Source: an uncultured Methanosarcinales archaeon (GTDB taxonomy: Archaea > Nanobdellota > Nanobdellia > Woesearchaeales > CAZYIM01). Taken from it: a stretch of DNA of 64,000 nucleotides. The stretch covers positions 1 to 64,000 of the forward strand of contig CAZYIM010000002.1 in NCBI GenBank assembly GCA_964647565.1, in the 5' to 3' direction. The notes under the pieces were generated by a model. The model was not told the origin of the DNA. It saw only the letters and a list, made by a program, of their open reading frames with translations, and made no database searches. Positions 34,172-43,520 of this stretch are shown here, piece by piece (within the stretch, counting starts at the first letter, position 1; each line of letters starts with the position of its first letter). A program made the translations under genes and the position numbers.

Positions 34172-35614
34172 TTGAAAGAGAAGAGGTTTGTTAGTTTTTT
34201 GTTAGTTGTAGTTTTATCTATGGCTTTGGCTCTTGTTTTTTTGGATTTTGTTCCTTCTGGTGGTTTGGCGGGTGTTGGTTTGAGTTGTGATTCTGTTTGT
34301 TTTGATGGTGGTTATAGTCGTGGTTTTTGTTTGCCTGAGAGTGCGGGTTGTGTTATTGAGGGTAGTGTTCATGAGGGTGTTGGTGATGTTTTTTGTTCTG
34401 AGCGGTTGTCTGTTGATTCTTTTTGTTGCTGTTTGGGTATTAGTCAGGATACTGATGGGGACCGAAATGTTTTGACTAAGTCTGTTGGTGTTGAGTTTGT
34501 TTATGCGGTTGGTCAGAGGGTTGCGAAGGTTGAGGGTGAGGATGTTTTCTTTTTTGTGAATGATCATTTGGGTAGTCCTAGGCGGGTTTTGGATGTTGGT
34601 GGTGCTGTTGTTTCTGAGTTGGATTTTTTGCCGTTTGGTGGTGAGATGACTGCTAGTGGTGAGGATTTTAAGTATACTGGCAAGGAGTTGGATTTTGATT
34701 CTGGTTTGCATTATTATGGTGCTCGTTTTTATGATTCTGTTCTTGGCAGGTTTGTTACGCCGGATATTGTTGAAAAGTTTCCTAATCCTTATGTCTATGT
34801 TGCGAATAATCCTATGAGAAATATCGATCCTACAGGTGAGCAGGTTGTGAATCTTGCTGGCCGGCAAAAACAATTAGCAGCCGTAACTAGTTGGACCAAA
34901 AAACACATGCCTGAGCCTGTCTATAATGTCCTGAATTTTGTTTTAGGATTCGATGAGTCTATGGAGACTAGAATGAAGAATTCACTGACAGATATGCTCC
35001 TGCCTATGTCTTCAGTTGAAAAGGTTGCTAAGAAGGGGGGTAGCAAGATACTTGACAAGGTGGGATCCTGGTTTCGGAAAAAGTTCAGATCTGCGCCAGT
35101 TAAGCAATATGGTCCTCATTCTAACAGGGAATTCGGAAGGATATACAACCAATTGCGAGAGTGGGGTGCTGATTGGGAGGCGGACGATTTTCTTAAGCTT
35201 CACCAGGCAGACCAGGTTCAATACGGAGATCTGGGATTTAATGTGTTTGTAAGCAAGAATCCGACTGGAGGATACTGGAAGTCCAGTGATATATTTACTG
35301 ACAGGCTAGGTGGTCGAATCAATCTGGGACCTGAGCTTGGTGTCACAATAATGGATATGCCGCGAGTCCCTTACTTTTGGGGGTTTGGTAGAAAACGAAT
35401 GAAAGATGCCACTGCCTTTGAGGCTTCGGTTGTGATGCACGAACTTCAGCATAAGATGAATCCTGGTATGTCTGAAAAAGGAGTGGTTTGGCAGACCATT
35501 CGTCGAAAGCTAGGGTTGGATGTGGACTACATGCGGCCTAGCGAGGATTTTGTGCTGATTAATAACAGGTTAAGTGATAATTATCTAGACATGGCTAAGA
35601 ACGGTATCAAATGA
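34172..35614 (+). CDS. Rhs core+payload module 1: N-terminal TM, 8-Cys module, Rhs-associated core, HExxH C-terminal domain
   Basis: DHLGSPR, YTGKELD.DSGLHYYGARFYD..GRF, NPMRNIDPTG (ends 34837); payload contains VVMHELQH. Confidence 0.9.
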   Translation: MKEKRFVSFLLVVVLSMALALVFLDFVPSGGLAGVGLSCDSVCFDGGYSRGFCLPESAGCVIEGSVHEGVGDVFCSERLSVDSFCCCLGISQDTDGDRNVLTKSVGVEFVYAVGQRVAKVEGEDVFFFVNDHLGSPRRVLDVGGAVVSELDFLPFGGEMTASGEDFKYTGKELDFDSGLHYYGARFYDSVLGRFVTPDIVEKFPNPYVYVANNPMRNIDPTGEQVVNLAGRQKQLAAVTSWTKKHMPEPVYNVLNFVLGFDESMETRMKNSLTDMLLPMSSVEKVAKKGGSKILDKVGSWFRKKFRSAPVKQYGPHSNREFGRIYNQLREWGADWEADDFLKLHQADQVQYGDLGFNVFVSKNPTGGYWKSSDIFTDRLGGRINLGPELGVTIMDMPRVPYFWGFGRKRMKDATAFEASVVMHELQHKMNPGMSEKGVVWQTIRRKLGLDVDYMRPSEDFVLINNRLSDNYLDMAKNGIK

Positions 35615-35771
35615 AATACATTTTCAAAAACTCACAAAACTTGAGGTTTTGCAAGGCTTTTTATTGCGAAAACTAGCAAAACTTTTTGGTGCGTTTTGAA
35701 GTTTTCCCATCTTTGCGATGCGAAAACTATTTAAATAATTTCATCAAGAGGAATATCGAAGAGGGATACTC

Positions 35772-42127: not shown

Positions 42128-42128
42128 G

Positions 42129-43520
42129 ATGAGAAATGACCGCTTCGTATTGGTGATTGTGGCAGTAGTTGCTATAATTGGCTTGATCTTTGTTTTTCTT
42201 AGTAATAATCTTGGAACTGGCACTGGGTTGGCTGGTGCTGGAATCAGTTGTGCTTCTGTTTGTCATGATGGAGGTTATAGTCGTGGTTTTTGTCTGCCTT
42301 CAAGTGCTGGTTGTGCAATTCCAGGCAGTGTTCATGAGTCTGATGCAGATGTTTTTTGCACTGATAAGTTGTCTATTGATGCTTTTTGTTGCTGTAAGGC
42401 TGGTGTTCAGGGATCTTTAGATGATGATAAAAATGTTCAATCTGTAGAGGTTGGTACTGAGTTTGTCTATGCTGCTGGTCAGAGGATTGCTAAGATACGG
42501 GGTAATGATGTGTTTTTCTTTGTCAATGATCATTTGGGCAGTCCGAGGAAGGTTCTTAATGCTGTTAGTGCTGTTGTTTCTGAGCTTGATTACTTGCCAT
42601 TTGGTACTGAGATGACAGATAGCAATGAGGATTTCAAATATACTGGAAAAGAACAAGACTTGGATAGTGGTTTACATTATTATGGTGCGAGATATTATGA
42701 TGCTGATATAGGCAGATTCATAACTCCTGATACTGTTGAAGCGTTTCCTAATCCGTATGTATATGTTGCCAACAATCCGATGAAGTATATTGATCCCACT
42801 GGACAACAGATAGATTACAACGATGAATTCAAGAAAGCCTGGGGTGAAGGGTTTAGGGTTATTGCAGCGACCGCAGGGGGATCACCAGGTAACCAAAGGG
42901 GGACACAAGGCGCTTGGGAGAGGGTTCAATCGGTAACTCAAGGTTATATGATTGGAGGAGATTTCAATTTAAGGGAATTCGATTTCAAGAACATCTTTGG
43001 TAAGAATTATCATGAAGGTATCGGGGAGAAATGGAGTGATTTTATTCTTGAGGAGACTAAAGACCTTGTCGCACAATCAGGTGCTGAGTATGATACGGGG
43101 ACGACTTGTGCTGGCTTTGGGCTTTACCTTTTGTTCAAGTTCGCAAATAAGATGGATTATGATACTGTTTCCCTGAATCTTGAGCGTGGAGGTGTGAATG
43201 ATAATTGGGTCAGAATTTTTAACAAGGCATCTGTCCGTGAGCTTGAGAGCGATAACAGGAAATGGGGTAATTATAAAGCTACTTTTAAAACTAATAAGGT
43301 CAAGGATTCATGGTTTCAGCAGGGTCCTTTGGCTAGCACTAATAATATTGAAAGGAATTCACGTCTTATTAAGGGATCCGCCAAGACAAGTGGTCTAAAT
43401 AAGCATACTGCTGAAGATATATTGGAACAGCCGGCAGGTACAATCTTGTTTGAATCTCACGAGGGTAGAAGTTGGGGGCACACCACCATAATAATCAATA
43501 AGAATGATGTGCCAAAATAA
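42129..43520 (+). CDS. Rhs core+payload module 2: N-terminal TM, 8-Cys module, Rhs core, Cys/His (papain-like) C-terminal domain
   Basis: Paralogous to 34172-34837 up to NPMKYIDPTG (ends 42803); unrelated payload with TCAGF and WGHT. Confidence 0.9.
   Translation: MRNDRFVLVIVAVVAIIGLIFVFLSNNLGTGTGLAGAGISCASVCHDGGYSRGFCLPSSAGCAIPGSVHESDADVFCTDKLSIDAFCCCKAGVQGSLDDDKNVQSVEVGTEFVYAAGQRIAKIRGNDVFFFVNDHLGSPRKVLNAVSAVVSELDYLPFGTEMTDSNEDFKYTGKEQDLDSGLHYYGARYYDADIGRFITPDTVEAFPNPYVYVANNPMKYIDPTGQQIDYNDEFKKAWGEGFRVIAATAGGSPGNQRGTQGAWERVQSVTQGYMIGGDFNLREFDFKNIFGKNYHEGIGEKWSDFILEETKDLVAQSGAEYDTGTTCAGFGLYLLFKFANKMDYDTVSLNLERGGVNDNWVRIFNKASVRELESDNRKWGNYKATFKTNKVKDSWFQQGPLASTNNIERNSRLIKGSAKTSGLNKHTAEDILEQPAGTILFESHEGRSWGHTTIIINKNDVPK

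What the first reader, a model, noticed from the sequence alone, without database searches (positions are those of the whole stretch)
34172..43520. Split, separately exported Rhs/TcB-TcC-like toxin cocoon with two alternative payload genes in a DPANN-like archaeon
Seen: three tightly coupled genes reproduce, in order, one Rhs/TcB-TcC shell. 35772-39617 has the SpvB/TcB-like start and propeller-like repeats. 39617-42127 has the YD repeats and stops at YDMGGNVIYEKTI. 42129-43520 resumes at EFVYAAGQRIAK and carries the core, DPTG and payload. Each piece begins with its own hydrophobic export or anchor sequence, and the second and third add a Cys-rich module before the Rhs sequence resumes. Random breakage would not supply these. 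A second full core+payload gene (34172-35614) lies upstream. Established: Rhs shells are normally one chain, or TcB+TcC; they encapsulate the C-terminal domain and release it by aspartyl autoproteolysis at PxxxxDPxG. Both Asp motifs (RFxTPD and DPTG) are present in both modules. Inference: the shell assembles outside the cell from three exported chains, with either membrane-tethered core+payload module loading a shared shell. No TcA, VgrG or PAAR gene is visible in this window.
Basis: partly seen in the sequence, partly recalled or inferred. Interest (0 to 1): 0.92.

Follow-up and report, generated by a model that had tools for sequence, protein, structure and literature searches.

The report
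Split, separately exported archaeal Rhs toxin shell
A small-celled marine archaeon encodes an Rhs/Tc-like toxin capsule as separate exported pieces (lid, barrel, and interchangeable plug-plus-toxin cartridges), and the barrel/cartridge split recurs across its whole order, an arrangement I did not find described.

Summary
Four same-strand genes (A 34172-35614, B 35772-39617, C 39617-42127, D 42129-43520) map in order onto one Rhs shell. B is the SpvB-like start plus a beta-propeller. C is the YD barrel. D and A are the last strands, the aspartyl-protease plug and an unrelated payload. On a 1198-position single-chain Rhs profile, B covers 8-260, C 300-983 and D 986-1118.

The two breaks have different standing. 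The barrel|cartridge break (C|D) is conserved. In the same archaeal order, 135 of 150 listed Rhs-core matches lie in frames under 650 aa. In a sample of 34 short genes, 31 begin with a signal-like segment and 26 lie within 8 kb of a large shell gene. Where a shell gene is near, its profile end matches the short gene's profile start, with one exception.

The B|C break was found only here. The closest relative (P0002, 2150 aa) is one chain, and the window carries an inserted stop plus signal peptide plus Cys-rich module. B also lacks a canonical start codon; ATA is the only candidate.

No binding or fold test of the pieces was obtained. Verdict: a new variant of a known kind. Extracellular assembly is inferred, not shown.

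The parts
34172..35614 (+). Gene A, cartridge 1 (480 aa). It has an N-terminal 19-residue uncharged anchor or leader. The Cys knot is residues 39-87 (34286-34432). The last shell strands and Rhs core are at 34631-34837 with GRFVTPD and DPTG. An unrelated C-terminal payload (34847-35611) carries an HExxH motif (VMHELQH).
   Evidence: (profile 986-1163). The payload lead to zinc metallopeptidases is weak (scores under 0.9).
35730..35774 (+). Start region of B. It holds a TATA-like tttaaata (35730-35737), an SD-like GAGGG (35761-35765) and ATA codons at 35766 and 35772. There is no ATG, GTG or TTG in frame before 35928.
   Evidence: The promoter and SD reading is my inference from the letters.
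35772..39617 (+). Gene B, lid (1281 aa from the ATA). The leader is IKKVGWVLVVIALLLLSSIFIYA. The SpvB-like domain is at 35961-36494. The beta-propeller is at about 36984-38036. An internal Cys-rich stretch is at about 38217-38630. The first shell segment runs to the C-terminus.
   Evidence: profile 8-260. B is 44% identical over 99% of its length to the single-chain P0002.
39602..39619 (+). B|C junction. GGAGG (39602-39606) lies 10 nt before the GTG start of C (39617-39619). That GTG overlaps B's TAG stop (39615-39617) by one base. C is in a different frame from B.
   Evidence: sequence. Read-through cannot fuse the two, because the frames differ.
39617..40024 (+). Module inserted relative to the single-chain relative. 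It comprises the signal peptide MVYRLIHRICILLMILALFTSFAYA and a Cys-rich domain (residues 26-136).
   Evidence: absent from P0002. (paralogue at own contig C2:108826, 40-42% identical; 2 of 401 order genomes match, one of them weakly).
40025..42127 (+). Barrel part of gene C. It includes DUF6443 (40460-40786) and the YD repeats, and ends at YDMGGNVIYEKTI.
   Evidence: 50% identical to P0002 1327-2010; profile 300-983.
42111..43520 (+). Gene D, cartridge 2. The start is the ATG at 42111 (17-nt overlap with C) or at 42129 (one base after C's stop). It has a 20-residue uncharged anchor. The Cys knot is at 42249-42395. The shell strands and Rhs core are at 42591-42806 with GRFITPD and DPTG. The payload is at 42813-43517.
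   Evidence: (profile 986-1118). A payload homologue sits on a short core gene of G096 (E 7e-39).

Best explanation
This is a Sec-exported, multi-chain version of the SpvB/beta-propeller/RHS ('TcdB/TcaC-type') polymorphic toxin. The capsule is encoded in modules.

- B is the N-terminal closure: an SpvB-like domain plus a beta-propeller, the part that TcB supplies in Tc toxins.
- C is the YD barrel.
- A and D (and a third paralogue on contig C8) are interchangeable cartridges. Each supplies the last shell strands, the C-terminal aspartyl-protease plug and a different payload.

Each piece has its own leader. The pieces would therefore cross the membrane unfolded and assemble on the outer face of the cell. 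A cartridge would complete the open end of the barrel, and the plug would cut the payload free at DPTG.

Shown: the domain content, the collinear mapping, the conservation and co-variation of the barrel|cartridge break in the order, and the polymorphic-toxin pattern of the cartridges.

Inferred: export, assembly outside the cell, encapsulation, autoproteolysis and the target. The extra B|C break is a lineage-specific event. It was made by insertion of the 5' end (leader plus Cys-rich domain) of another secreted-protein gene at the shell family's variable-insert site.
For: (1) Collinearity. On a 1198-position profile built from 38 Rhs homologues, B covers 8-260, C covers 300-983, and D and A start at 986. 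In PDB coordinates of a single-chain teneurin-like protein (9ifo), C 416-831 matches 1611-2007 and D 125-225 matches 2036-2143.

(2) A paralogous system in the same genome is split too, at another point. The C62 shell covers 146-897 and its short gene covers 906-1119.

(3) Order-wide pattern. 75 of 401 genomes have the core. Of 150 listed matches, 135 lie in frames under 650 aa, 9 in 650-999 aa and 6 in 1000 aa or more.

(4) A sample of 20 regions from 16 genomes, chosen for core matches away from contig ends. 31 of 34 short core genes have an N-terminal hydrophobic segment, against 22 of 77 other ORFs. 26 of 34 lie on the same strand within 8 kb of a large shell gene, 19 of them within 3 kb. 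Break points co-vary: shells ending at 868-899 pair with short genes starting at 893-909, and shells ending at 981-987 pair with short genes starting at 986-1007. There is one exception, a leaderless orphan.

(5) Cartridge pattern. Within a genome the parts up to DPxG are 55-100% identical (72-100% in four of the five loci compared) and the tails 19-53% (19-34% in four of the five). For A, D and C8 the figures are 66-86% against 21-22%. One locus (G167) has one shell gene followed by six tandem short genes, each with a leader.

(6) Catalytic R, D and D are invariant in 45 aligned cores.

(7) Coupling signals. GGAGG lies 10 nt before C's GTG, which overlaps B's stop. D starts 1 nt after C's stop or 17 nt inside C.

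(8) The C-terminal plug of Rhs is the aspartyl-protease domain that closes the barrel. In Tc toxins the N-terminal closure is a separate protein with a beta-propeller (Jurenas 2021, PMC8636562, passages read).

(9) The B|C break lies at the start of the region (P0002 about 1305-1440) where other family members carry 430-670-residue inserts. In five of those six members the insert includes a Laminin_G_3 domain.
Against: - No physical or modelled contact between the pieces was obtained.
- B has no ATG, GTG or TTG before 35928, so its leader depends on an ATA start.
- The B|C break was found only here, and the nearest relative is a single chain.
- 8 of 34 sampled short genes have no shell gene within 8 kb on the same strand. 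Short genes outnumber shells (34 against 15 in the sample), so some may act alone or in trans.
- The only two-chain precedent I know (TcB-TcC) assembles in the cytoplasm, as I recall. Enclosing a payload after separate export has no precedent known to me.
- There are no expression data. The sequencing runs found were DNA contigs only.
- The profile used for mapping contains C and P0002 as rows, so C's coordinates are partly circular. D's, A's and the relatives' coordinates are not.
Confidence: 0.62

Rival explanations
1. The short leader-core-payload proteins are stand-alone secreted toxins. Their core is only a self-cleaving pro-domain. The large YD proteins next to them are independent surface proteins such as adhesins.
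For: 8 of 34 sampled short genes have no shell gene within 8 kb. Short genes outnumber shell genes 34 to 15. The C8 copy in this genome has no shell neighbour. Short core proteins with leaders also occur in metagenome proteins labelled Patescibacteria and Gracilibacteria.
Against: The shell genes lack exactly the profile segment that their neighbours supply. The two break-point classes co-vary between neighbours. In solved Rhs structures the core is a plug embedded in the barrel, not a free domain. In some loci the gene pairs overlap by a few bases (L073, L074 and L057).
Confidence: 0.17
2. The working unit here is C plus a cartridge. B is the leftover 5' part of the ancestral gene after a foreign 5' end was recombined into it. 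B has lost its start codon and is on its way to decay.
For: There is no canonical start before 35928. The break is unique to this genome: P0002 is a single chain, and only 2 of 401 order genomes match the inserted module. Shell genes of only 836-1218 aa, without an SpvB part, pair with short genes elsewhere (L059, L064 and L071).
Against: B is open for 1281-1283 codons and is 44-59% identical to its relatives by BLASTP along its length (48-62% over the HMMER-matched stretches). Its leader-coding stretch is intact, with an SD-like GAGGG 6 nt before the ATA and a TATA-like box upstream. ATA is an allowed table-11 start. GGAGG within B's last codons couples C to it.
Confidence: 0.3
3. The breaks are assembly or sequencing errors, or pseudogenisation of an ordinary single-chain Rhs gene.
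For: The genome is a low-depth metagenome bin. Contig depths in four runs are about 1-6. No listed contig piece is shown to bridge 39615-39620.
Against: Contigs of four runs show no base differences or indels anywhere in 35600-43600. Two contigs bridge the C|D junction (42080-42548) and two cover the ATA start. These runs may include the source sample, and they appear to be two data sets, each filed under both studies. The pieces are in different frames, and each downstream piece begins with a leader. The same split is seen in many other genomes.
Confidence: 0.03

Closest known systems
Tc toxin BC subcomplex (TcB-TcC, e.g. TcdB2-TccC3, YenB-YenC2)
   Same: The capsule is made from more than one polypeptide. 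The N-terminal closure has an SpvB-like domain and a beta-propeller. The C-terminal piece carries the aspartyl-protease core and a variable payload. D 123-226 matches TcdB2-TccC3 2045-2157.
   Different: The break lies about 130-210 profile positions before the shell's end, so the cartridge has only a few strands plus the plug. As I recall, TcC supplies roughly 680 residues of shell. Every piece here has a leader, which implies export before assembly. No TcA was found, although that search was uninformative. There are three chains here, not two. The host is an archaeon.
Single-chain Rhs/YD polymorphic toxins of the 'TcdB/TcaC' class (signal peptide, SpvB, beta-propeller, RHS) described by Zhang et al. 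2012
   Same: The domain order is the same, and the class is reported from Euryarchaeota among others (PMC3482391, Table 1 passage). Relatives of B are such single chains. One of them (P0275, 2690 aa) ends in a phage-lysozyme domain.
   Different: In that class the core and toxin are the C-terminus of the same chain, and alternative tips are silent cassettes brought in by recombination. Here the tips are complete genes with their own start and leader. No adjacent same-strand immunity gene is present in the window.
Orphan rhs-CT cassettes downstream of bacterial rhs genes
   Same: They are short genes sharing the conserved core segment and differing after DPxG.
   Different: As I recall, orphans lack secretion signals and usually come with immunity genes. 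31 of 34 sampled short genes here have an N-terminal leader. In the G167 array the genes abut or overlap, leaving no room for immunity genes.
BC-toxin-like domain inside the giant SPEARE proteins of Nanohaloarchaeota (Hamm et al. 2019)
   Same: It is a DPANN surface protein with a region modelled as the BC subunit of ABC toxins and proposed to act on the host cell (PMC6642349, passages read).
   Different: SPEARE is one fused 3,000-8,500-residue chain. No split, cartridge or Rhs core genes are described in the passages I read.

Membership tests
Rhs/YD-repeat shell proteins | YD/RHS repeats | tested here: met
   C: PF05593 E 6.8e-44 and TIGR01643 E 2e-33. PDB matches to Rhs, Tse15 and teneurin shells.
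Rhs/YD-repeat shell proteins | Rhs-associated core with the two aspartyl-protease motifs (GRFxxxD and DPxG) | tested here: met
   A and D: TIGR03696 E 1.1e-19 and 5.2e-22. R188, D201 and D222 are invariant in 45 sequences. Catalysis itself is not testable here.
Rhs/YD-repeat shell proteins | Shell, plug and toxin on one polypeptide | tested here: not met
   Three genes in three frames. 135 of 150 listed core matches in the order lie in frames under 650 aa.
TcdB/TcaC-type polymorphic toxin / TcB | Signal peptide, then SpvB domain, then beta-propeller | tested here: met
   SpvB E 5.5e-7, above the cut-off. The model of residues 301-800 matches beta-propellers. The leader is present only with an ATA start.
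Tc toxin (ABC) complex | TcA translocator partner | tested here: inconclusive
   PF18276 and PF03538 were not found in the own genome, but neither family rang in any control genome. The genome is 86.9% complete.
Tc toxin (ABC) complex | Break between TcB and TcC in mid-shell, with both made without leaders | tested here: not met
   The break is at profile position 983|986 of 1198, and at about 897|906 in the paralogue. All pieces have leaders. The TcB/TcC break position and their lack of leaders are recalled, not tested.
T6SS Rhs effectors | PAAR/VgrG-linked N-terminus | tested here: not met
   No PAAR match in the own genome, and the controls rang in 3 of 14. B's N-terminus is SpvB-like. VgrG was not searched.
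Classical polymorphic toxin system | Conserved trunk with variable C-terminal toxin after the processing site | tested here: met
   A, D and C8 are 66-86% identical up to DPxG and 21-22% after it.
Classical polymorphic toxin system | Cognate immunity gene directly downstream of each toxin | tested here: not met
   No ORF lies between A and B (157 nt). The next gene after D is on the other strand, from 43527. Immunity encoded elsewhere is not excluded.

The most novel reading that the evidence does not exclude
The split is a way to diversify a toxin at the protein level. One exported shell is a reusable launcher, completed outside the cell by any of several separately exported plug-plus-payload cartridges. 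Here these are A, D and the unlinked C8 copy; elsewhere there are up to six in tandem. This would replace the recombinational tip-switching of bacterial Rhs loci.

In this genome the two kinds of Cys-rich module, one on the barrel and one on the membrane-anchored cartridges, would be a docking pair that brings the pieces together. The same two module types sit on adjacent genes at a second locus (own contig C2:108335-110835).
Probability: 0.3. Interest if true: 0.85.

Novelty: new variant of a known kind. Interest (0 to 1): 0.7.

Why it matters
Rhs and Tc capsules are being studied as protein-encapsulation and delivery devices. All described forms are made inside the cell, as one chain or as TcB plus TcC.

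A natural form whose barrel and plug-payload are exported separately, with break points that co-vary between neighbouring genes across an archaeal order, would show two things. The barrel can be closed in trans by a roughly 125-220-residue piece. A payload can be loaded after export.

It also gives DPANN archaea a large and varied set of secreted effectors: 75 of 401 sampled genomes, up to 13 core genes in one genome. Very little is known about how these organisms deal with hosts or competitors.

My searches of the held literature found no paper combining DPANN with 'YD repeat' or 'RHS repeat', and none combining Patescibacteria with 'RHS repeat-associated core domain'. Makarova et al. 2019 (mBio), the survey of archaeal polymorphic toxins, was not held and may bear on novelty.

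Tried and rejected
It gives no evidence either way, and I did not send that chain to any other tool.
- Whole-protein Pfam and PDB sequence searches of B found nothing. Only the N-terminal piece searched alone hit SpvB.
- The Rfam scan of the window found nothing.
- The bacterial promoter and terminator scan found no more sites than shuffles did (29 against 28.9; 6 against 6.9). It does not apply to archaea, so I did not use it.
- The genome-contig scan with B found only a 23-residue chance-like match in a spirochaete contig.
- Payload identification:
  - Pfam found nothing for either tail at E up to 5, apart from one non-significant row.
  - The Atlas gave only sub-0.9 leads: zinc metallopeptidases for A and DUF4300 for D.
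  - My impression that D's tail has an NlpC/P60-like Cys...His pattern is unsupported by any tool.
- Earlier scan notes held nothing on this genome or sequence.
- The listed contig rows do not show a piece bridging the B|C junction. This is a gap in the table, not a finding.
- One paper look-up failed because the paper is not held. One literature search was rejected for a comma in a term and I did not repeat it.
- I considered and rejected stop-codon read-through or another genetic code as the cause of the breaks. The three frames differ.
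Full report
**What is in the sequence**

Four genes lie on the + strand.
- A: 34172-35614, TTG start, 480 aa.
- B: open frame 35739-39617.
- C: 39617-42127, GTG start, 836 aa.
- D: 42111 or 42129 to 43520, 469 or 463 aa.

B's first ATG/GTG/TTG is the GTG at 35928. The hydrophobic leader at 35772 (IKKVGWVLVVIALLLLSSIFIYA) is translated only from an ATA codon at 35766 or 35772. An SD-like GAGGG sits 6 nt before the ATA at 35772, and a TATA-like tttaaata lies about 35 nt upstream. That reading of the letters is my inference.

C's GTG overlaps B's TAG by one base and has GGAGG 10 nt upstream. D starts 1 nt after C's TAA, or 17 nt inside C. The three genes are in three different frames, so read-through cannot fuse them.

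**Domains**

- A and D carry the Rhs-associated core (TIGR03696, E 1.1e-19 and 5.2e-22).
- C carries RHS repeats (E 6.8e-44) and DUF6443.
- B gave nothing as a whole protein. Its first 380 residues alone hit SpvB above the Pfam cut-off (E 5.5e-7).
- B residues 301-800 were folded with a 16-row alignment. The model is all-beta (pLDDT 73.2, pTM 0.66). The listed Foldseek PDB matches are dominated by beta-propeller proteins such as UVR8, WD40 proteins and a designed 8-blade propeller, at E about 1e-9. I name these folds from recall.

B therefore has the SpvB-then-propeller order of TcB and of the 'TcdB/TcaC' class of polymorphic toxins. Zhang et al. 2012 list that class for Euryarchaeota among others (PMC3482391, passages).

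**One shell in three pieces**

I built a 1198-position profile from an alignment of C with 37 homologues, mostly single-chain Rhs proteins.
- B maps to positions 8-260, found only with HMMER's filters off (iE 4e-15).
- C maps to 300-983.
- D maps to 986-1118 and A to 986-1163.

C and P0002 are rows of that alignment, so C's placement is partly circular. D's and A's are not.

The PDB gives an independent check. C 416-831 matches a teneurin-like chain (9ifo) at 1611-2007, and D 125-225 matches it at 2036-2143. D 123-226 matches TcdB2-TccC3 at 2045-2157.

In a solved T6SS Rhs, the last roughly 95 residues of the shell are an aspartyl-protease plug embedded in the barrel. In Tc toxins the N-terminal closure is a separate protein with a beta-propeller (PMC8636562, passages). 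The division here is therefore lid (B), barrel (C) and plug-plus-payload (A, D). R188, D201 and D222 of D are invariant in 45 aligned cores. A has the same motifs.

**The two breaks have different histories**

The closest database relative of B is P0002, 2150 aa. It is 44% identical over 99% of B and continues as a single chain into a C-like barrel. C 142-835 is 50% identical to P0002 1327-2010.

Relative to P0002, the window has an insert holding a stop, a new start, a signal peptide and a Cys-rich domain of about 110 residues. Leader and Cys-rich domain together have a 40-42% identical paralogue at the start of a 669-aa secreted protein on the same contig (C2:108826). Otherwise the module matched only weakly in 1 other of 401 same-order genomes.

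The break lies at the N-terminal edge of a region (P0002 about 1305-1440) where six other family members carry inserts of roughly 430-670 residues. Five of these hold a Laminin_G_3 domain. That site evidently tolerates large additions.

P0002 ends its shell at the same residue as C (YVYDMAGNVIYEE against YVYDMGGNVIYEK) and then adds a Cys-rich tail. So the barrel|cartridge break is shared, while the B|C break is not.

**The barrel|cartridge break is the norm in this order**

Same-order genomes are 0.6-2.1 Mb. The nearest named proteins come from MAGs labelled Nanoarchaeota or Candidatus Woesearchaeota. A DPANN host is therefore consistent, though I ran no phylogeny.

The Rhs core was found in 75 of 401 sampled genomes, 70 of them above the cut-off. 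Of the 150 listed matches, 135 lie in open frames under 650 aa (median 431.5), 9 in 650-999 aa and 6 in 1000 aa or more. Sixty-six further matches were not listed. Two of the 75 genomes, G315 and G182, are unpublished, each with one listed match. Without them the figures are 73 of 399 genomes and 133 of 148 matches.

From the listed matches I took 20 regions in 16 genomes. I chose them for lying away from contig ends, not for their neighbours. Of 34 short core genes (300-649 aa):
- 31 have an N-terminal hydrophobic segment (Kyte-Doolittle 12-residue mean of 2.3 or more in the first 70 residues). Among other ORFs of 300 aa or more, 22 of 77 do.
- 26 lie on the same strand within 8 kb of a shell gene of 800 aa or more, 19 of them within 3 kb.
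- 8 have no shell gene in the fetched region.

The break points co-vary. Shell genes ending at profile positions 868-899 sit next to short genes starting at 893-909. Shells ending at 981-987 sit next to short genes starting at 986-1007. The single exception is a leaderless, orphan-like second copy (L074_11701).

The window's own genome has both classes: C|D at 983|986, and the C62 pair at 897|906. Both gene orders occur, short gene first or shell first. The window has both at once, with A upstream and D downstream.

**Cartridges**

Within a genome the short genes are 55-100% identical in the 120 residues up to DPxG (72-100% in four of the five loci compared). They are 19-53% identical after it (19-34% in four of the five, which is about the floor of a global alignment). 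For A, D and the unlinked C8 copy the figures are 66-86% against 21-22%.

One locus (G167) has a 1218-aa shell gene followed by six abutting short genes, each with its own leader. This is the polymorphic-toxin pattern. The difference is that every alternative tip is a complete gene with its own start and leader, whereas bacterial orphan cassettes, as I recall, are silent.

No same-strand ORF follows A or D that could be an immunity gene.

D's payload recurs on a short core gene of another genome (E 7e-39). A's payload has an HExxH motif and only weak leads to zinc peptidases. D's payload has only a weak lead. A single-chain relative of B ends in a phage-lysozyme domain. That shows at least some members of the wider family carry a cell-wall-degrading payload. 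It says nothing certain about A or D.

**Cys-rich modules**

A, D and C8 share a knot directly after a 19-20-residue uncharged stretch. Its pattern is C-x3-C...G-x-C...C...C...CCC. The same knot occurs alone in a 164-aa membrane protein at C2:108335. The gene overlapping that protein's end is the 669-aa protein that carries the C-type module.

Weak matches to the knot (E 8e-6 to 9e-4) occur in 13 other genomes. In the three matching ORFs of about 520 aa that I inspected, the knot sits at the C-terminal end of proteins with what I read, by eye, as pilin-like leaders.

The two module types are thus neighbours at two loci in this genome. That is the only basis for my docking-pair idea. It is a hypothesis.

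**Assembly check**

Contigs of four public runs, labelled marine or seawater metagenome, show no base difference or indel anywhere in 35600-43600. The runs come from two studies and look like two data sets, each filed under both. Two contigs bridge the C|D junction and two cover the ATA start. No listed row is shown to bridge 39615-39620. Depth is low, and the runs may include the source sample, so this is weak support. The comparative data are the stronger argument against artefact.

**What was not obtained**

The complex prediction of barrel and core was not folded, so no model supports or opposes binding. Export, assembly outside the cell, encapsulation, self-cleavage and the target are all inferred. 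No PAAR gene was found in the 86.9%-complete genome. The TcA searches were uninformative.

**Literature**

- Zhang et al. 2012 state that polymorphic toxins are rare in archaea and describe the SpvB/propeller/RHS class (passages).
- Hamm et al. 2019 report a BC-toxin-like region inside giant single-chain SPEARE proteins of Nanohaloarchaeota (passages).
- Full-text searches for DPANN with 'YD repeat' or 'RHS repeat', and for Patescibacteria with 'RHS repeat-associated core domain', found no paper.
- Makarova et al. 2019 was not held.

**Verdict**

The finding is a new variant of a known kind: an Rhs/Tc-type capsule whose plug-and-payload is a separate, separately exported gene product, common in one archaeal order. 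In this genome the lid is also split from the barrel. That third break, and B's expression, are the weakest parts.

Noticed in passing
own genome contig C2:108335-116003 (outside the window): A 164-aa membrane protein carries the same Cys knot as A and D. A 669-aa secreted protein overlaps its end, and its leader and Cys-rich start are 40-42% identical to C's. A 1728-aa secreted protein follows. The two module types are neighbours here as in the Rhs locus.
   Followed up: partly
own genome contigs C62:1426-8651, C10:67195-70153 and C8:45816-47216: C62 holds a second split system: a 2000-aa shell with a multi-pass membrane N-terminus and FG-GAP-like repeats, plus a 414-aa cartridge. C10 holds a third, cut by the contig end: a 422-aa short gene followed by a gene with a B-like start. 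C8 holds an unlinked cartridge whose first 104 residues are 87% identical to A's.
   Followed up: partly
whole genome G000: At 2.68 Mb and 86.9% complete (1.85% contamination), the genome is larger than any same-order genome listed (0.6-2.1 Mb). It is either an unusually large member of the order or a bin with extra contigs.
   Followed up: no
window 42549-42802: Contigs in all four runs match the conserved core of D and then run on into unlike sequence at 42549, 42690, 42723, 42771 and 42802. One continuation looks to me like the C8 paralogue. The others suggest further core variants with other tails in the same samples.
   Followed up: no
window 43527-45945, - strand: Two divergently oriented genes encode leader-bearing proteins of 343 and 430 aa with no Pfam match at E up to 0.01. 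By eye, the 430-aa protein's C-terminus has a Cys...His pattern reminiscent of NlpC/P60 amidases. No tool supports this.
   Followed up: no
loci L048, L051 and L052 (G400, G039, G306): Proteins of about 520 aa have what I read as pilin-like leaders, several repeated domains and a C-terminal Cys knot resembling the one in A and D. The knot may be a general surface module of this order.
   Followed up: partly
window 34214-34873, - strand: A 219-aa antisense ORF lies inside gene A, with a 224-aa counterpart inside the C8 paralogue. Both are low-complexity and rich in T, N, I and R. They are most likely shadows of the coding strand.
   Followed up: no
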